34,506 bases of DNA from a virus: UHGV virus genome UHGV-0828925. The stretch is one strand, 5' to 3'. Positions 1,822 to 33,153 of the stretch are shown one piece after another. A program made the position numbers and the translations under genes. Below the pieces are notes generated by a model. The model was not told where the DNA came from. It saw only the letters and a program-made list of their open reading frames with translations, and made no database searches. Each line of letters opens with the position of its first letter. Positions within the stretch are counted from its first letter, which is position 1.

Positions 1822-3298
1822 TAACCTGAGCGACGAAGAGCAAATCGAATTGCTCGAGCTACTCGAAGAAGAAGAGAACTACCGTAACACACACCTGCTA
1901 TATGAATTTACGCCATACAGCAAACAGCGTGAGTTCATCGACGCCGGGCATGACTATCCAGAGCGATGTTTTATGGCTGGTAACCAGCTTGGTAAGTCAT
2001 TTACTGGTGCTGCTGAAGTCGCGTTTCACCTTACCGGGCGTTATCCGGGCACAAAAGGCTATCCTGCTGATGGTAAATATGGCGGTGAGTGGAAAGGTAA
2101 GCGTTTCTATGAGCCTGTTGTCTTCTGGATTGGCGGCGAGACAAACGAGACGGTAACCAAAACGACTCAACGCATCCTGTGCGGTCGTATTGAAGAGAAT
2201 GATGAGCCGGGCTACGGTTCAATACCGAAAGAGGACATCATTAGCTGGAAGAAGTCTCCTTTCTTTCCGAACCTTGTTGATCATCTTCTGGTTAAGCATC
2301 ACACGGCTGATGGCGTTGAAGATGGCATTTCAATCTGCTACTTCAAGCCATACTCGCAAGGCCGTGCACGCTGGCAGGGTGACACAATCCACGGCGTGTG
2401 GTTTGACGAAGAACCACCATACAGCATTTATGGTGAAGGTCTTACCCGTACCAACAAATACGGGCAATTCTCAATTCTGACGTTTACCCCGCTGATGGGG
2501 ATGTCTGACGTTGTTACCAAGTTCCTGAAGAATCCCAGCAAGTCGCAGAAAGTGGTCAACATGACCATCTATGACGCTGAGCACTACACAGACGAACAGA
2601 AAGAGCAAATCATCGCATCCTATCCCGAGCATGAGAGAGAGGCGCGTGCTCGCGGTATTCCTACGATGGGTAGTGGTCGAATCTTCCAGATACCGGAAGA
2701 GACGATTAAGTGTCAGCCGTTCGAGTGTCCTGATCACTTCTACGTAATTGGCGGGATGGATTTCGGATGGGATCACCCACAGGCGCAGGTTCAGATTTGG
2801 TGGGATAAGGACGCAGACACAATCTACGTTTCACGCGTGTGGAAGGCGAAAGAAAAAACAGCCGTTCAGGCGTGGGGAGCCGTTAAATCATGGGCGCATA
2901 AAGTGCCAACCGCATGGCCTCATGACGGAAACCAGCACGAGAAGGGCGGCGGTGAGCAGCTCAAAGGGCAGTATGCAGATGCTGGTTTTATGATGTTACA
3001 GGAGCATGCGACATGGCCTGATGGCGGTAATGCTGTTGAGCCTGGCATCACTGAATTGCGCGACATGATGCTCGATGGTCGCTTCAAAGTATTCAACACC
3101 TGTGAGCCATTCTTTGAGGAGTTCCGCCTCTATCACCGTGATGAAAACGGGAAAATCGTCAAGCTTAACGACGACGTTCTCTCAGCCGTTCGCTATGCAT
3201 ACATGATGCGCCGCTTCGCAAAAATGATGCGCGACATCAAAAAACCAAAAGAGAAAAAGATACCAGCCCCAATCAGGCCCATCGCACGGAGAACTTAA
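1799..3298 (+). CDS. gp2: Terminase large subunit (P22 gp2-like)
   Basis: 499 aa, overlaps the end of gp3; length and position match P22 gp2; nuclease-domain-like acidic motifs in the C-terminal half. Confidence 0.92.
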
Positions 3299-5464
3299 AT
3301 GGCCGACGAAAACAGACTCAATTCCATTCTGTGTAAGTTTGACGCGGACTGGATGGCGAGCGATGAAGCCAGAACCGAGGCGACAAATGACCTGTATTTT
3401 AGCCGAGTGTCGCAATGGGATGACTGGCTATCAAACTACACGACCCTGCAATATCGCGGACAATTCGATGTTGTTCGCCCGGTGGTCAGGAAGCTGGTCG
3501 CAGAGATGCGCCGGAATCCTATCGACGTTCTCTTCCGACCAAAAGACGGAGCTAATCCTGATGCTGCCGATGTGCTGATGGGGATGTATCGTACTGATAT
3601 GCGCCATAACACGGCAAAAATTGCCGTTAACGTTGGCGTTCGTGAGCAGATAGAGTCCGGCGTTGGTGCATGGCGTCTGGTCACGCAGTACGAAGACAAC
3701 GATCCAACAAGCAACAATCAGGTAATTCGACGCCTGCCAATTCATGAAGCCTGCTCACACGTCATATGGGACGCCAACAGCAAGCAGATGGATAAGAGCG
3801 ATGCTAAGCACTGCACGGTGATTAACGCCTTGTCACGCAATGGCTGGAAAGAGTTCGCAGAGGATTACGGTATTGATCCGGACACCTTACCATCTTTCCA
3901 GAATCCGAACGATACATGGCTGTTTCCGTGGGTATCGAATGATGTCGTCTACGTCGCTGAGTATTACGAGGTCGAAGAGAAGAAAGAGAAAGTCTTCATC
4001 TACCGCGATCCGCTGACAGGTGAGCCGGTCAGCTATTACCAGCAGGATATTAAAGACGTTATCGACGACCTGGCTAATCGTGGATTCATTAAGGTAGCAG
4101 AGCGCAAGGTGAAGCGTCGGCGTGTGTATAAGTCGATCATCACCTGCACGCAGATACTGAAAGACCGCGAGAAGATAGCCGGAGAGCATATTCCAATCGT
4201 TCCAGTGTATGGAGAATGGTCATTCGCTGGTGACAAGGAGTGCTACGAAGGAGTGGTAAGGCTGACGAAAGACGGTCAACGCCTTCGTAACATGATCATG
4301 TCGTTCAACGCCGATATCGTTGCTCGTTCACCGAAGAAGAAACCTACCTTCTTCCCTGAGCAAATCGAAGGCTACGAATACATGTACGGTGGAAATGATG
4401 ACTATCCGTACTATCTGCAGAACAGGACCGATGAAAACGGTAACGACCTGCCGATTGGTCCAATCTCCTACATGGAAAACCCTGAAGTGCCGCAAGCCAA
4501 CGCTTACATGCTTGAGGCTGCCACCAACGCAGTGAAAGAGGTGGCTAGTCTTGGCGTGGATGCGCAGGCGGCAAACTCTCAGGTCGCTTTCGATACCGTC
4601 AATCAACTGAACATGCGGGCAGACCTTGAGACATACGTGTTTCAGGATAACCTGGCTACCGCAATGCGACGCGATGGCGAGATTTATGCCTCAATGGTCA
4701 ATGATATTTATGACGTTCCTCGTCATGTAACGCTGACACTTGAAGATGGAAGCGAGAAAGACGTTCAACTCTATGCGCAAGTTGTCGATTACCAGTCCGG
4801 CAATGTGGTCACACTCAACGACATTCGCGGTCGCTATGAGTGCTATACAGACGTCGGACCATCCTTCCAGAGTATGAAGGAACAGAACCGCGCAGAGATT
4901 CAGGAGTTGCTCACCAAGGTTCCGCAAGGTACTCCAGAGTTCCAGATGCTGATGCTGCAATACTTCACGCTGCTTGACGGTAAAGGCGTCGAGATGATGC
5001 GAGAGTACGCGAACAAGCAACTGGCGATGATGGGGCTGAAGAAACCAGAAACACCTGAAGAGATGGAGATGGTGCAACAGGCACAACAACAGCCGCAGCA
5101 GCCATCAGCAGAGCAAATTCAGGCGCAGGGCATCCTTCTGCAAGGTCAGGCTGAATTGCTCAAGGCAGAGAACCAACAGGCGCAGATTCAGGTTGAAGCT
5201 GCCAAGGTTGAAGCTCAAAACCAACTTAACGCCGCGAAGATTGCAGAAATCTTCAACAATATGGACCTCGACAAGCAGGCAGAACTGCGTGAGTACCTCA
5301 AGCTAGTAGGTCAATTCCAGCAACAGCGCAGCAAAGATGCTCGTGCTAACGCTGAGCTGCTTCTTAAAGATGCAGACCAGACTCATTCACAACGCATGGA
5401 TTTCGCGAATCTTATGCGTCAAGTTCAAATCCCCTCCGGCGGAGTAGCCGAGACACCTCAATAA
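3299..5464 (+). CDS. gp1: Portal protein (P22 gp1-like)
   Basis: 721 aa, directly after large terminase; Q/A-rich coiled-coil C-terminal barrel region ([10 protein letters not shown]...[20 protein letters not shown]) typical of the P22 portal. Confidence 0.92.
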
Positions 5465-15460: not shown

Positions 15461-15955
15461 TTATTTTATAGTTTTTATGAATTCTTTATTAAATCCCTTC
15501 GCTTCTCCGGGGTATCTTCCGAAGACAATTTTTATAAAAACAGAAAAAATAAAGATAGCAACGCTTAACAACAATTGCAGTATCATTGGAACCCAAAGAA
15601 CTACAGGCTCTATATTCATGAAACCAAATATTCTTCCGGCGATCATGGCGAAGTACCACACTGTTATCAGCAAACTTAGTGGCATATGAATTACTGATAT
15701 TACCAATCCAAGAGCATCAGTAATTCTGTTTTCAAATTTTTCAGGGGAAAACTTTTCTTTAAGGTAATTCAGTGCGCAGGCCTCATTCTCTGGATTTTCA
15801 GCATTTTTCCCTATAGCAATAGAAATCTCAGATATCCTTGATTCAATTCTTTTACGTTTAATAAAACTAGAAAAAAAGAACCACGCAATCTGCAACCCTA
15901 TCCCCAGAAATAGAGTTGCGGCAACTAGCACAGCGTAACTCATAGAATCAGACAC
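15461..15955 (-). CDS. Multi-pass inner-membrane protein, putative superinfection exclusion protein (SieA-like by position)
   Basis: 164 aa with an N-terminal TM helix and 2-3 C-terminal TM helices; AT-rich codon usage; sits between gp16 and mnt where P22 carries sieA. Function inferred from position only. Confidence 0.6.
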
Positions 15956-17914: not shown

Positions 17915-18114
17915 GTAAAGAATGTTGTTTCTGCGGCATTAGCGAATCAGACGCTGATCAAACATACATTTACTCTAAAGAAACAGGTCGGATGCTGTGT
18001 AGTGACTGCGTGTTGGACATCATAAGATACAAGCATCTTGGATGTTCTGCCAGCATTAGCAATATAGGTGAAGTATATGAAGGGAAAGATATAACTGATA
18101 GAGCAGAAAGTTGA
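17911..18114 (+). CDS. Small Cys-rich protein (possible zinc ribbon)
   Basis: 67 aa with CCFC...CSDC spacing (two Cys pairs); translationally coupled to arc. Confidence 0.5.
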   Translation: MSKECCFCGISESDADQTYIYSKETGRMLCSDCVLDIIRYKHLGCSASISNIGEVYEGKDITDRAES

Positions 18115-18176
18115 AGCCCCAACTGCGGTAACAGTCAGGACTTCGGTATCAACAAATCGGATTAGGAAATATTGAC

Positions 18177-29439: not shown

Positions 29440-29751
29440 TTAGGCGGCTGATGTTTCTTCTTTCAGGCTTTCGAGATATTTACGTGGGTCGTCGTAACAT
29501 TGGCATTCGCTGTACCAATCCACCCAGCGATCAGTAAGCCCCATCTCTGATAAATCTTCATCGGTAAGGCTCTCATCCCACATCTCAAGGCCGTTAGCAT
29601 TGCAGTAATCAGGCTTGATGTTGTTGTCATACTGAAAGGCGTCATAATCAGCCAGTGCGTCCATCAGGCGAACACCCTCTTCAACACTTGCCACTTCTAC
29701 AATGAACGGCTTCATAGGTACTTGCGGGATATGCCAGACACGTAATTTCAT
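29440..29751 (-). CDS. Hypothetical acidic protein
   Basis: About 103 aa from ATG with GGAGAA SD (track ORF 29440..29805 starts with TTG). Confidence 0.5.
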   Translation of the reverse strand: MKLRVWHIPQVPMKPFIVEVASVEEGVRLMDALADYDAFQYDNNIKPDYCNANGLEMWDESLTDEDLSEMGLTDRWVDWYSECQCYDDPRKYLESLKEETSAA

Positions 29752-29939
29752 ATTTTCTCCGTTAAAAAAATCGCCCTCACACTGGAGGGCAAAGAAGATT
29801 TCCAATAATCAGAACAAGTCGGCTCCTGTTTAGTTACGAGCGACATTGCTCCGTGTATTCACTCGTTGGAATGAATACACAGTGCTGTGTTTATTCTGTT
29901 GTTTATGCCAAAAATAAAGGCCGACTATGCGGCCATCAC

Positions 29940-30136: not shown

Positions 30137-30436
30137 TCAAATAAGTGGTTTGCTGCCTAATTTCATTTTCTGGCGACCAACACAAGTCACACCCATTTCA
30201 CTGCGTGGCTTGCTGTAGTAAATACGGTTCTGTTTACGCTCGACTTCTTCTGCCTTCTTGCAGCGAAGGCTTCCGAGTGATGCTGCTTTATCTGCTCTGA
30301 CGCAACCAGAGAGCTTTAGCGCAATTTTTCGCGCCAGTCGCTGCTCTTGCATTGCCTGTTCACGTTGAGTCTGTCTGCGTGCTCTGCGGCGATTTCTGGC
30401 GTTATCGTCAGCCAGATATGTAATGACTACTGTCAT
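30137..30436 (-). CDS. N: N-like transcription antiterminator
   Basis: 99 aa; arginine-rich motif NARNRRRARRQTQREQ near the N-terminus; C-terminus ...ERKQNRIYYSKPRSEMGVTCVGRQKMKLGSKPLI resembles lambda N (...RTWYSKPGERGITCSGRQKIKGKSIPLI); GGAGG SD. Confidence 0.8.
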   Translation of the reverse strand: MTVVITYLADDNARNRRRARRQTQREQAMQEQRLARKIALKLSGCVRADKAASLGSLRCKKAEEVERKQNRIYYSKPRSEMGVTCVGRQKMKLGSKPLI

Positions 30437-31085
30437 GTTGACCTCCGATGAAACAACTTTGGAATTTTTTTATTACAAAGTGGTTTCCTTCCCCGCCAAT
30501 TAGACGGGGATGGAAGAGCATTTATGAGCCTTCATGGACTCTGCTCGATCAGTTCTATTTAATTAATCTCTCAACTGAATGTAAGTATTCACATAAATCC
30601 TCCTACCTCTTGTGCAGCTTTCTTGAATATGGTGGCGGCTGCATAACGCCTATGGAATTGACTTTGGCGATTGGATGGCCGGTGCTGAACTCCGGCTTAC
30701 TGGTTAGAGCGCCCGCACTACCAGTGACGCTGTCTTGAGGCGCAGATTGGTTACTGCTTGCCATGAGCGCTGTTTATACATTGGTCGAGCATCAGCCTGC
30801 TCATTCATCCAATCACAAAGCCAACTACTCTTTGACTCACACTCTCGCAGTGAGCGCGCTCATGCCATTGAGTCTCTGCCGCTTCATCGCCGCTGATAAC
30901 CGGTGCGCGTCTGGCATTCGCGCTGCTTTACCGGAGCTACTTTTAATATATTGACCCTAACCCGATGCTAAGCAGGCTCGCTCAATGGCGACTCAGGGCA
31001 GTATCATTACTGCTGCATTGCCTTTCGGCTGCGGTCTAACCGCGTTAGTGCACCATTACGGCACCTCCTGTTTGGTTAAACTCAG

Positions 31086-31173: not shown

Positions 31174-31260
31174 AGAATACTGTAGGTATTTTATTGTGTA
31201 AATACCCAAGGTATTTATTTTTGGTGAAATAATGATAAGCAAATGAATACAAAGGATATT
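31174..31260 (-). promoter_or_regulatory. OL operators and pL promoter
   Basis: Three AATAC-N5-(G/A)TATT sites at 31176..31190, 31201..31215, 31246..31260; minus-strand -35 TTTACA / 17 bp / -10 TATTCT overlapping the first site. Confidence 0.6.
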
Positions 31261-31347
31261 TATTTTTTTCGGTGTCTGCTTGTTCAGTGCTTTTTATGCG
31301 GGATATGTGAAGTGGATCCCGATAGCTATTGCTGCCGGGATTATGGG

Positions 31348-31716
31348 TTAGTCAGCGAAGGTTAAGACGAGAATTACCTTAATGATGTCTGCTACAACAG
31401 ACACGGCCATAGATAAACCAAAGACAATCCAAGCCATAGAGATGTCTTCACTACCATCGTATAGAGTTCCGTAATCACTGGTGTAAGGCGTAAATGTCGC
31501 GCCTTGATACAATAGGTATAAGCTTGATCCATAGAGGAAAAATGCAGATATCCCTTGTATTGCCATGATCACCAGAATCATGAAACGAGCTGATCTATGC
31601 GCCCAAGCCTGGCTTATTTTTTCTGATAGAGATTTCGCAATAAAAGCATGCGCTAAGCCGTAAATTGTCGAGATTGCCAACATCCCAAAAAAGCTTGCTA
31701 TAGCGGTTCCAACCAT
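31348..31716 (-). CDS. Four-helix membrane protein co-transcribed with cI (rex-position accessory gene)
   Basis: About 122 aa from ATG with AAGGGG SD 18 nt after the cI stop (track ORF 31348..31737 starts with TTG); four hydrophobic segments. Confidence 0.7.
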   Translation of the reverse strand: MVGTAIASFFGMLAISTIYGLAHAFIAKSLSEKISQAWAHRSARFMILVIMAIQGISAFFLYGSSLYLLYQGATFTPYTSDYGTLYDGSEDISMAWIVFGLSMAVSVVADIIKVILVLTFAD

Positions 31717-31733
31717 AAGCGCCCCTTGCGTGA

Positions 31734-32450
31734 TCAAACCAGCCTTAGTTTTGTCTCAATTGCAACGCCTATAATCTTGCAGTTTCCATTGATTGGCACG
31801 AGAGGCCATGCAGGATTAAGCCCCTTGAGGTATTTATTTCCGCCGTCGATTATCAGCTTCTTGAATGTTGCTTCGTTAGAGTCAGAAAGTTTTGCTATGA
31901 CCAAGCTGCCGTTGATCGCCTCCCTTCCGGTATCGAAAAGAACGAATGTTCCCTCTGGAATGCTTAACCCAACCGGTGCCGTCATTGAATCACCTTCCAC
32001 TTTAAGCCAGAACGCATTACCTTGAATATGCGCGTCAGACTCAAGCCAAACATCTATGTCTTTAATGGTGTATGGTTCGCATGCTTCACACCACGAGCCA
32101 GCCTGGATACTGCTTAACACCGGATACCTCTTTCCTGCTCTGTATTCCCCTGCATACCTTACGTTGGCATCGCTCTTAAGGCTTTCTGCCTGTTCTGCAA
32201 CCTTGGCAGCAATTGACTGGCTAAAATCAGCAATTGAGACTTGCAACAATCGTGCAAAACCAGATGCAACCTCAACGTTTAGCGCATTTCTGCCATTAAG
32301 ATAATGCCCTACCGCTCCTTGGGTGATACCCAGTTCATCAGCGATTGAGTATTGGGTTATTCCCAATTCTTTCTTTTTTGACTCATACAAAGCCTTAAGC
32401 CGCTTAGCGTCTTCCAGCTGTTCTGTCGTCAGTGATTTTTTATTTTCCAT
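31734..32450 (-). CDS. cI: CI-type prophage repressor (HTH + S24 LexA-like autocleavage domain)
   Basis: 238 aa; N-terminal LTTEQLEDAKRLKALYESKKKELGITQYSIADELGITQGAVGHYLNG (lambda-cI-like HTH); C-terminal FWLKVEGDSMTAPVGLSIPEGTFVLFD...ATFKKLIIDGGNKYLKGLNP (S24 Ser/Lys dyad region). Confidence 0.92.
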   Translation of the reverse strand: MENKKSLTTEQLEDAKRLKALYESKKKELGITQYSIADELGITQGAVGHYLNGRNALNVEVASGFARLLQVSIADFSQSIAAKVAEQAESLKSDANVRYAGEYRAGKRYPVLSSIQAGSWCEACEPYTIKDIDVWLESDAHIQGNAFWLKVEGDSMTAPVGLSIPEGTFVLFDTGREAINGSLVIAKLSDSNEATFKKLIIDGGNKYLKGLNPAWPLVPINGNCKIIGVAIETKLRLV

Positions 32451-32461
32451 AGCTTAATTCT

Positions 32462-32527
32462 AATAGCTAAGGTACTTAAACTAAAAATACCCTGAGTATT
32501 GATTGCTTTGAATACCTGTAGTATTCT
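32462..32527. promoter_or_regulatory. OR operators with pR and pRM
   Basis: Sites AATAGCTAAGGTACT (32462..32476), AATACCCTGAGTATT (32486..32500), AATACCTGTAGTATT (32511..32525); pR -35 TTGATT (32499..32504), 17-bp spacer, -10 TATTCT (32522..32527). Confidence 0.65.
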
Positions 32528-32757: not shown

Positions 32758-32802
32758 CGCTCTTTAACAGTCATGGTCCTCATTCCCGCCGAAATGCGGG
32801 AA
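32758..32802 (+). promoter_or_regulatory. nutR: nutR (boxA + boxB)
   Basis: boxA CGCTCTTTAACA at 32758..32769; boxB hairpin TTCCCGC-CGAAAT-GCGGGAA at 32783..32802; followed by hairpin GCGCAT-AAGTTG-ATGCGC (tR1 region). Confidence 0.7.
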
Positions 32803-32859
32803 TACAACGCGCATAAGTTGATGCGCATAACTTCTTATTTGTTAAGGAAATACTTACAT

Positions 32860-33153
32860 ATGGTTCGTGCAAACAAACGCAACGAGGCTCTAAGAATCGA
32901 GAGTGCGTTGCTTAACAAAATCGCAATGCTTGGAACTGAGAAGACAGCGGAAGCTGTGGGAGTTGATAAGTCGCAGATCAGCAGGTGGAAGAGGGACTGG
33001 ATTCCAAAGTTCTCAATGCTGCTTGCTGTTCTTGAATGGGGTGTCGTCGAAGACGACATGGCTCGATTGGCACGACAAGTTGCTTCGATTCTCACCAATA
33101 AAAAACGCCCGGCGGCAACCGAGCGTTCTGAACAAATCCAGATGGAATTTTAA
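32860..33153 (+). CDS. cII: CII transcriptional activator (lambda-like)
   Basis: 97 aa MVRANKRNEALRIESALLNKIAMLGTEKTAEAVGVDKSQISRWKRDWIPKFSMLLAVLEWGVV...; TAAGGAAATACTTACAT-ATG upstream as in lambda; internal start of track ORF 32773..33153. Confidence 0.92.
   Translation: MVRANKRNEALRIESALLNKIAMLGTEKTAEAVGVDKSQISRWKRDWIPKFSMLLAVLEWGVVEDDMARLARQVASILTNKKRPAATERSEQIQMEF
32870..32883 (-). promoter_or_regulatory. CII-binding repeat of pRE (TTGC-N6-TTGC) antisense within the cII 5' end
   Basis: Minus-strand TTGCGTTTGTTTGC directly read at the start of cII, as in lambda pRE. Confidence 0.65.

What the first reader, a model, noticed from the sequence alone, without database searches (positions are those of the whole stretch)
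31348..31716. Four-helix membrane protein translationally linked to cI at the position of rexAB
A roughly 122-aa protein with four hydrophobic helices starts 18 nt after the cI stop with its own SD, so it is expressed in lysogens from the maintenance promoter. In lambda this slot holds the RexA/RexB exclusion system; here a single small membrane protein sits alone. It is likely a lysogen-expressed exclusion or conversion factor.
Basis: partly seen in the sequence, partly recalled or inferred. Interest (0 to 1): 0.55.

Follow-up and report, generated by a model that had tools for sequence, protein, structure and literature searches.

The report
HkaS: uncharacterised membrane gene behind cI
The ORF is real and is the already-catalogued but never-studied gene hkaS of coliphage HK620, a small three-pass inner-membrane protein that always sits just after the prophage repressor gene; it is a reasonable but untested candidate for a factor that protects lysogens from other phages.

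Summary
The ORF is real: window 31348-31716, minus strand, 122 aa. Its ATG lies 17 nt after the cI stop and it has its own AAGGGG Shine-Dalgarno. It is 96-100% identical to hkaS of phage HK620 (GenBank product 'unknown', PHROG 6534 'unknown function').

It has three transmembrane helices plus one short amphipathic cytoplasmic helix, not four hydrophobic helices (hydropathy; AlphaFold pLDDT 89.5). Predicted topology is N-out/C-in.

The family is an ORFan. Only 12 clusters turned up in 5.8 billion proteins and 2 representatives in an exhaustive profile search. There is no Pfam, NCBIfam, PADLOC or PDB match and no informative fold match. It shows no detectable relation to lambda RexB or to P22 SieA.

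It is under purifying selection (dN/dS about 0.14-0.2), and 92 of 93 copies are intact. It is found in 146 of 5426 complete E. coli genomes, the same number that carry this cI, adjacent wherever coordinates were compared. It travels with the immunity module across at least five phage genera and one heteroimmune repressor.

Expression from pRM and an exclusion function are plausible from position, since the cI-to-N slot is a known accessory-gene hotspot (rexAB, bstA). Neither is shown.

Verdict: a real, already-annotated gene of unknown function and a fair candidate for an exclusion screen. Interest is low to moderate.

The parts
31348..31716 (-). hkaS coding sequence (122 aa plus stop): a predicted three-pass inner-membrane protein, N-terminus periplasmic and C-terminus cytoplasmic
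   Evidence: ORF list and translation. 95.8-97.5% protein identity over residues 1-120 to copies in 15 phage records, including HK620 hkaS; HF4s matches in two pieces because of a frameshift. PHROG 6534 matched full length, E 2.3e-78. AlphaFold pLDDT 89.5. dN/dS 0.14-0.2.
31722..31727 (-). Shine-Dalgarno AAGGGG of hkaS, 5 nt upstream of the ATG, inside the 17-nt cI-hkaS spacer (31717-31733)
   Evidence: Read directly from the sequence. An SD-like purine run is kept in all lineages (AAGGGG, CAAGGA, AAAGGA, AGAGGG).
31734..32450 (-). cI repressor gene (238 aa; HTH_3 plus Peptidase_S24), immediately upstream of hkaS and co-oriented with it
   Evidence: Pfam E 5e-24 and 8e-10. Annotated cI in HK620.
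31316..31341 (-). Stem-loop directly 3' of the hkaS stop, with no U-tract in this lineage; the likely 3' end or stabiliser of the cI-hkaS transcript
   Evidence: RNA fold, z = -2.8 for the 136-nt region. Hairpins of different sequence sit at the same place in all five lineages, and the one in L013 is a canonical terminator.
31235..31265 (-). Position corresponding to tIMM ('termination of cI transcript') in the HK620 record. Coordinates are approximate and were transferred by alignment.
   Evidence: HK620 annotation. The consensus terminator scan found nothing on this strand here.
31174..31238 (-). OL1-OL3 operators and the pL promoter (TTTACA-17-TATTCT), bounding the cI-hkaS unit on its downstream side
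   Evidence: Promoter scan. Operator positions transferred from HK620. The operator sequences are conserved in the E. coli, Hafnia and Salmonella lineages.
32461..32526 (+). OR3-OR1 operator region between cI and cro. pRM, the presumed promoter of cI-hkaS in lysogens, must lie here but is not annotated.
   Evidence: Transferred from the HK620 annotation. pRM itself was not detected by the consensus scan.

Best explanation
The ORF is hkaS, an accessory ('moron') gene of the HK620-type immunity module. It encodes a 122-aa protein with no soluble domain. The protein is predicted to insert in the inner membrane with three helices, its N-terminus in the periplasm, a basic cytoplasmic loop that carries the most conserved motif (K-I-x3-W-x-H-R-x-A-R-F), an acidic and aromatic periplasmic hairpin, and its C-terminus in the cytoplasm.

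It is most likely transcribed with cI, from pRM in lysogens and from pRE during establishment, and translated from its own SD. My preferred function is lysogen-expressed superinfection exclusion at the inner membrane. It would interfere, through helix-helix contacts, with the membrane step of genome entry of incoming phages, as P22 SieA, T4 Imm and HK97 gp15 do. It would not be a RexB-type triggered channel.

Shown: the gene is real, the protein is membrane-type, it is under purifying selection and it is strictly linked to cI. Inferred: transcription from pRM. Conjecture: exclusion, and its mechanism.
For: Identity: HK620 hkaS and PHROG 6534.

Membrane topology: hydropathy and charge distribution, with loop 1 net +3 and loop 2 net -4; a confident AlphaFold model.

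Selection: dN/dS 0.14-0.2. 92 of 93 copies are intact and keep the identical 369-nt length across 52-100% protein identity.

Linkage: the gene lies 17-23 nt after cI in all 91 loci whose contig reaches cI. 146 E. coli genomes (147 places) match hkaS and 146 (147 places) match this cI, with adjacent coordinates in the records that appear in both lists.

Operon architecture: no promoter-like or terminator-like site between cI and hkaS, a hairpin after hkaS in every lineage, and tIMM annotated after hkaS in HK620.

Precedent: the cI-to-N slot is a recognised hotspot for lysogen-expressed defence genes, rexAB and bstA (PMC8585504). P22 SieA is a three-TM inner-membrane protein with no other domain that blocks DNA injection (PMC10883804).

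Evolutionary rate: HkaS evolves 4-5 times faster than the adjacent CI (dN 0.33-0.5 against 0.08). It is 55% identical where the CI C-terminal domain is about 88% identical. This fits adaptation to host or phage membrane partners.
Against: There is no experimental or expression evidence, and no paper mentioning hkaS together with HK620 was found.

No sequence, profile or fold similarity to any exclusion protein was detected.

The module occurs in phages with unrelated virions: Lederbergvirus, Lambdavirus, Hendrixvirinae and Sepvirinae. A SieA-like block aimed at the carrier's own injection apparatus would therefore not explain the distribution. This window also already encodes a SieA-like protein and another protein annotated as exclusion.

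Strict linkage to cI could be mere hitchhiking inside a non-recombining immunity block.

Phage HF4s, which was isolated as a phage, carries a frameshifted copy. The gene is therefore dispensable for phage growth, as expected for a moron, though this could also reflect relaxed need.
Confidence: 0.4

Rival explanations
1. A factor that modulates lysogeny or host physiology rather than acting against phages. A small membrane protein made together with CI could tune a membrane-bound host function, for example the FtsH/HflKC protease that controls CII/CIII, envelope stress, or transport. It would thereby stabilise lysogeny or raise lysogen fitness.
For: It would be co-expressed with cI from both pRE and pRM, by position. 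It keeps its linkage to the CI C-terminal domain even when the DNA-binding domain, Cro and the operators are swapped. Its occurrence is independent of virion type. The most conserved motif faces the cytoplasm.
Against: There is no similarity to any known FtsH modulator or transporter. Linkage to the CI C-terminal domain is also what plain physical adjacency predicts. No data exist.
Confidence: 0.2
2. An abortive-infection effector resembling RexB. The protein would be a latent inner-membrane channel that depolarises the cell when an infecting phage perturbs the membrane or supplies a trigger, without a RexA-type sensor.
For: It sits in the same genomic slot as rexAB. It is a small polytopic membrane protein with conserved polar or charged residues inside helices (Q54, S65, S106, D110, K113), which could line an oligomeric pore.
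Against: hhalign against RexB gives probability 0.6%. It has three transmembrane helices, whereas RexB is reported to have four. No RexA-like or any other partner ORF lies between cI and OL. With no soluble domain there is no obvious sensor. RexB alone is not known to abort infection (established knowledge of the Rex system).
Confidence: 0.15
3. A hitchhiking ORF of no function, or a non-coding DNA/RNA element that merely happens to be open.
For: The family is extremely narrow. Within E. coli, amino-acid polymorphism is high relative to cI: 17 of 32 variable codons change the protein, against 6 of 39 in cI. One frameshifted copy exists.
Against: dN/dS is 0.14-0.2 once enough divergence has accumulated. 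Exactly 122 codons are kept, with no indel or stop, over divergence that saturates synonymous sites. An SD is kept in every lineage although the spacer sequence differs. The fold is predicted with high confidence from only 8 sequences.
Confidence: 0.05

Closest known systems
hkaS of coliphage HK620 (AAK28867.1, GenBank AF335538) and its copies in HK630, HK140, mEpX2, HF4s, phi296/phi367 and Stx2c phages; PHROG 6534
   Same: The same gene: 95.8-97.5% protein identity in 15 of the 16 phage records (HF4s is frameshifted), the same length, the same position after cI, and the same flanking operators.
   Different: Nothing material. All records call it 'unknown' or 'hypothetical', so membership gives no function.
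Lambda RexB (with RexA), the abortive-infection system in the cI operon
   Same: The genomic slot between cI and OL, the presumed transcription from pRM in lysogens, and being a small polytopic inner-membrane protein.
   Different: No sequence or profile relation. 122 aa with three TM helices, against 144 aa with four reported. No RexA partner. A spacer of 17 nt after cI, against 112 nt before rexA in lambda.
P22 SieA, an inner-membrane blocker of DNA injection
   Same: A prophage-expressed inner-membrane protein with three predicted TM helices and no other domain (PMC10883804). This is the working analogy for the mechanism.
   Different: No relation by hhalign. The SieA motif FxRYPxEAxxFNK is absent. 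sieA lies between genes 16 and 9 in the virion module, and a true SieA-like gene is present elsewhere in this window at 15461-15955. hkaS follows the immunity module across virion types.
BstA of Salmonella prophage BTP1
   Same: Encoded directly downstream of the prophage repressor and presumed to share its promoter. The paper reports high bstA expression from the BTP1 prophage in lysogeny (PMC8585504).
   Different: The paper describes BstA as localising to sites of phage DNA replication and mediating abortive infection, which is not a membrane-protein role. HkaS has no homology to it.

Membership tests
HkaS / PHROG 6534 (uncharacterised) | Full-length sequence match to the family profile and to HK620 HkaS | tested here: met
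   phrog_6534 E 2.3e-78 over residues 1-122 of 122. 95.8% identity to HK620 hkaS by tblastn.
HkaS / PHROG 6534 (uncharacterised) | Located immediately 3' of an S24-type cI repressor and before OL/pL | tested here: met
   All 91 loci whose contig reaches cI show this, as does the window.
Lambda RexB | Sequence or profile homology to RexB | tested here: not met
   hhalign probability 0.6%, E 0.1, 21 columns. No PADLOC hit at E up to 10.
Lambda RexB | Four transmembrane helices | tested here: not met
   Three hydrophobic segments and three long helices in the model.
Lambda RexB | An adjacent rexA sensor gene | tested here: not met
   Only a 17-nt spacer separates cI from hkaS, and no ORF with a family match lies between hkaS and OL.
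Lambda RexB | Abortive infection with membrane depolarisation (for example, exclusion of T4 rII) | not testable with these tools
   Needs infection assays.
P22 SieA | Sequence or profile homology, including the cytoplasmic motif FxRYPxEAxxFNK | tested here: not met
   hhalign probability 0.2% against the window's own SieA-like protein. The motif is described in PMC10883804 and is absent from the HkaS sequence.
P22 SieA | [quoted passage not shown] | tested here: not met
   hkaS is in the immunity region. The SieA-like gene (phrog_7745, E 7e-109) is at 15461-15955.
P22 SieA | Blocks DNA injection of P22-like phages | not testable with these tools
   Needs K+ efflux or DNA-entry assays.
Holins, GtrA-like flippases, colicin immunity proteins (other small polytopic membrane families that were considered) | A match to the corresponding Pfam or NCBIfam models | tested here: not met
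   No family at E up to 1 for the window protein. Only sub-threshold generic TM hits at E up to 10 across 8 members. No NCBIfam hit.

The most novel reading that the evidence does not exclude
HkaS is the founding member of a new single-gene family of inner-membrane anti-phage proteins. It would be carried as a passenger of one repressor lineage (the CI C-terminal domain) through at least five temperate-phage genera and four enterobacterial genera, and it would protect about 2.7% of sequenced E. coli. It would act without any sensor partner, by blocking a membrane step common to several phage types.
Probability: 0.3. Interest if true: 0.55.

Novelty: already known. Interest (0 to 1): 0.3.

Why it matters
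The gene, its name and its place in the cI operon have been on record since the HK620 genome was deposited, so its existence is not news. What remains open is its function.

It is a conserved, selected membrane protein that is probably expressed in lysogens. It sits in a slot known to hold defence genes and is present in roughly 1 in 37 complete E. coli genomes, including Stx-phage relatives.

If it proved to be an exclusion factor, it would add a new and very small protein family to the prophage defence repertoire. It would also matter for phage-therapy host-range prediction in E. coli. If it proved to modulate lysogeny, it would be a new accessory layer on a classic genetic switch. Either outcome can be tested cheaply.

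Tried and rejected
Family libraries. Pfam, NCBIfam and PADLOC gave nothing for HkaS. PHROGs gave only an 'unknown function' family.

Sequence searches. The word-indexed search of 5.8 billion proteins found 12 clusters, all of them the same family. The exhaustive profile search of 1.84 billion representatives found 2 hits, so no remote relatives exist. The PDB sequence search found none.

Profile comparisons with RexB and SieA were negative.

Literature. 'hkaS' alone returns only fungal herbarium codes, 'hkaS' with 'HK620' returns nothing, and 'mEpX2' returns nothing functional. The svsR sRNA reported at the 3' end of another prophage's cI (PMC12803456) concerns a different element.

Translational coupling through RNA structure was rejected: z = +0.40 and the pairing is not conserved.

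The 129-aa TTG start was rejected because the frame is not conserved.

Holin was rejected: there is no charged C-terminal tail, the gene is outside the lysis cassette, and a holin would be lethal if expressed in lysogens. GtrA-type conversion was rejected: no PF04138 match and no gtrB/gtrC neighbours.

The HK620-annotated tIMM could not be reproduced as a canonical terminator on this strand. A hairpin directly after the stop codon is the conserved feature instead.

Full report
**What is there**

On the minus strand, window 31348-31716 is an ATG-initiated ORF of 122 codons. It follows the cI repressor gene at 31734-32450, which has HTH_3 and Peptidase_S24 domains.

The cI stop TGA is at 31736-31734 and the ORF's ATG is at 31716-31714. 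The spacer is therefore 17 nt, and it holds an AAGGGG Shine-Dalgarno 5 nt from the ATG. Downstream come a hairpin (31316-31341), the OL operators and pL (TTTACA-17-TATTCT, 31202-31174), nutL, and the N gene (30137-30436).

The window as a whole is a P22-like (Lederbergvirus-type) temperate coliphage. It carries a sar RNA, a SieA-like gene, and cro, cII and O genes.

**Identity**

The cI-ORF segment is 98.4-99.2% identical in DNA to 16 phage records. The protein is 95.8-97.5% identical over residues 1-120 in 15 of them. In the sixteenth, HF4s, the copy is frameshifted.

In HK620 (AF335538) the gene is named hkaS, with product 'unknown'. That record places tIMM, 'termination of cI transcript', after hkaS and overlapping OL3. 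PHROGs files the protein as family 6534, 'unknown function', matched end to end at E 2.3e-78. RefSeq calls it 'hypothetical protein'.

No paper mentioning hkaS in a phage context was found.

**Is it a real gene?**

Yes. I retrieved 93 copies, counting the window: annotated phage records, IMG/VR contigs, metagenome and genome contigs, and one Buttiauxella genome. Of these, 92 have an intact 369-nt ORF starting with ATG.

The single exception is phage HF4s, which has a 1-nt deletion in an A6 run at about codon 32.

Homologs diverge down to 52% protein identity yet keep exactly 122 codons. Nei-Gojobori dN/dS is 0.14 between the window and the Hafnia-type allele, and 0.20 between the Hafnia and Salmonella types. 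Beyond that, synonymous sites are saturated.

Each lineage keeps a purine-rich SD although the spacer sequence differs. The upstream TTG at 31737, used by some gene callers to give 129 aa, is not conserved in frame.

**What kind of protein**

Hydropathy shows three hydrophobic segments: about 2-27, 45-71 and 93-121. The loop at 28-44 carries K28, K33, R41 and R44 against E32. The loop at 72-92 carries D81, D87, E90 and D91. By the positive-inside rule this gives an N-out/C-in topology with three membrane passes.

AlphaFold, run with only 8 sequences, gives a confident model (pLDDT 89.5, pTM 0.76). It has helices at 2-29, 31-38, 41-74 and 89-121, and a small hairpin at 78-86.

Invariant residues cluster in three places:
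- the cytoplasmic helix and the start of TM2 (K33, I34, W38, H40, A43, R44, F45);
- the periplasmic end of TM2 (S65, Y67-Y70, T74, F75, Y78);
- the cytoplasmic half of TM3 (D110, K113, I115-T119, A121).

**Relatives**

There are none outside the family.
- The word-indexed search of 5.8 billion proteins found 12 clusters, from E. coli, Hafnia and Salmonella.
- The exhaustive profile search of 1.84 billion representatives found 2.
- Pfam, NCBIfam and PADLOC gave no hit, and the PDB sequence search gave none.
- Foldseek against viral and PDB structures found nothing at E <= 0.001.
- hhalign against lambda RexB gave probability 0.6%. Against the window's own SieA-like protein it gave 0.2%.

**Distribution and linkage**

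In complete E. coli genomes, hkaS matches 146 of 5426 genomes at 147 places. This cI also matches 146 genomes at 147 places, and the coordinates are adjacent in the records that appear in both lists. In every fetched locus whose contig reaches upstream, cI ends 17-23 nt before hkaS.

The conserved block ends at about 31085, just past nutL boxB. Beyond that point the flanks are mosaic.

The module occurs in several phage groups with different virion architectures:
- Lederbergvirus: HK620, HF4s and this window;
- Lambdavirus: HK630;
- Hendrixvirinae: HK140 and mEpX2;
- Sepvirinae: phi296, plus phi367, which PMC12502783 classes as Oslovirus.

Stx2c-converting phages carry it too.

In Buttiauxella (L013) a 55%-identical hkaS follows a repressor whose C-terminal domain is about 88% identical. 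Its N-terminal domain, Cro and operators are different, so that phage is heteroimmune.

HkaS evolves 4-5 times faster than CI (dN 0.33-0.5 against 0.08). Within E. coli it shows 17 amino-acid-changing variable codons out of 32, against 6 of 39 for cI.

**Expression**

This is inferred, not shown. Four observations favour a cI-hkaS transcript from pRM and pRE:
- the two genes are co-oriented;
- the spacer is only 17 nt;
- no promoter-like or terminator-like site lies between them on this strand;
- every lineage has a hairpin directly after the hkaS stop, with a different sequence each time, and the L013 version is a canonical GC stem plus U-tract.

The E. coli hairpin lacks a U-tract, and I could not reproduce HK620's tIMM as a canonical terminator.

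'Translationally linked' is not supported. The junction folds no better than shuffled sequence (z = +0.40), and the one AUG-occluding pairing is not conserved. A G4-G6 length polymorphism in the SD may modulate translation.

**Function**

The cI-to-N interval of lambdoid phages is described as a mosaic hotspot. It holds rexAB in lambda and bstA in BTP1. The BstA paper argues that this reflects the high activity of the repressor promoter in lysogens (PMC8585504).

P22 SieA shows that a three-TM inner-membrane protein with no other domain can be sufficient to block DNA injection (PMC10883804). On that analogy I favour a lysogen-expressed exclusion function at the inner membrane, with confidence about 0.4.

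Three points cut against a SieA-like, own-type-specific block:
- hkaS follows the immunity module rather than the virion module;
- this phage already has a SieA-like gene and a second gene annotated as exclusion;
- no homology supports the assignment.

The rivals, with my confidence in each:
- a modulator of lysogeny or host physiology (0.2);
- a RexB-like abortive-infection channel without a sensor (0.15), weakened by the absence of RexA, the three-TM topology and the lack of homology;
- a functionless hitchhiker (0.05), contradicted by purifying selection.

**Verdict**

The gene is already catalogued as hkaS, so the finding is ordinary in kind: an uncharacterised accessory gene in a known hotspot. 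It does have some value as a well-defined, cheaply testable candidate for a new small exclusion protein present in about 2.7% of complete E. coli genomes.

Noticed in passing
window 15461-15955 (-): A 164-aa SieA-like superinfection exclusion protein (phrog_7745, E 7e-109) sits just after the ejection-protein genes. The phage therefore already encodes a three-TM inner-membrane injection blocker in its virion module.
   Followed up: partly
window 29440-29805 (-): An ORF in the pL operon matches phrog_1510, annotated 'superinfection exclusion' (E 4e-58). This is a third candidate exclusion gene in the window.
   Followed up: no
window 30452-31084: About 633 bp between nutL boxB and the N start codon is absent from HK620 and HF4s. 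It is present piecewise in other prophages, as segments 31085-30816, 30834-30657 and 30669-30451. No ORF in it matches a family and there is no Rfam match. One phage record annotates an ORF here as 'repetitive proline-rich cell wall protein 2', which is probably spurious. This is an unusually long, mosaic N leader.
   Followed up: partly
window 18109-18175 (-): sar antisense RNA (Rfam RF00262, 68.5 bits), marking a P22-type immI (ant/arc/mnt) region.
   Followed up: no
window 31717-31733 and the same spacer in 91 other copies: The G-run inside the hkaS Shine-Dalgarno varies in length (G4, G5, G6, and GGGGGA) among otherwise near-identical prophages. This changes the SD-to-ATG spacing and may tune translation.
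   Followed up: partly
L013 (uncultured Buttiauxella, CBCPKK010000004.1) 2067-3369: A heteroimmune module. The CI C-terminal domain is about 88% identical to the window's, but the N-terminal DNA-binding domain, Cro and the operators are different. hkaS (55% identical) still follows 20 nt after cI and ends with a canonical intrinsic terminator. This implies a recombination joint inside cI, between its domains.
   Followed up: partly
L002 (phage HF4s, MT833387) about 2960-2975: hkaS has a 1-nt deletion in an A6 homopolymer at about codon 32. It is the only disrupted copy among 93, and it is either a real null allele in a viable phage or a sequencing error.
   Followed up: yes
window 32773-33153 (+): The mechanical cII ORF is 126 aa, but the Phage_CII domain starts at residue 30 and HK620 annotates a 92-aa cII. 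The true start is therefore probably an internal ATG.
   Followed up: no
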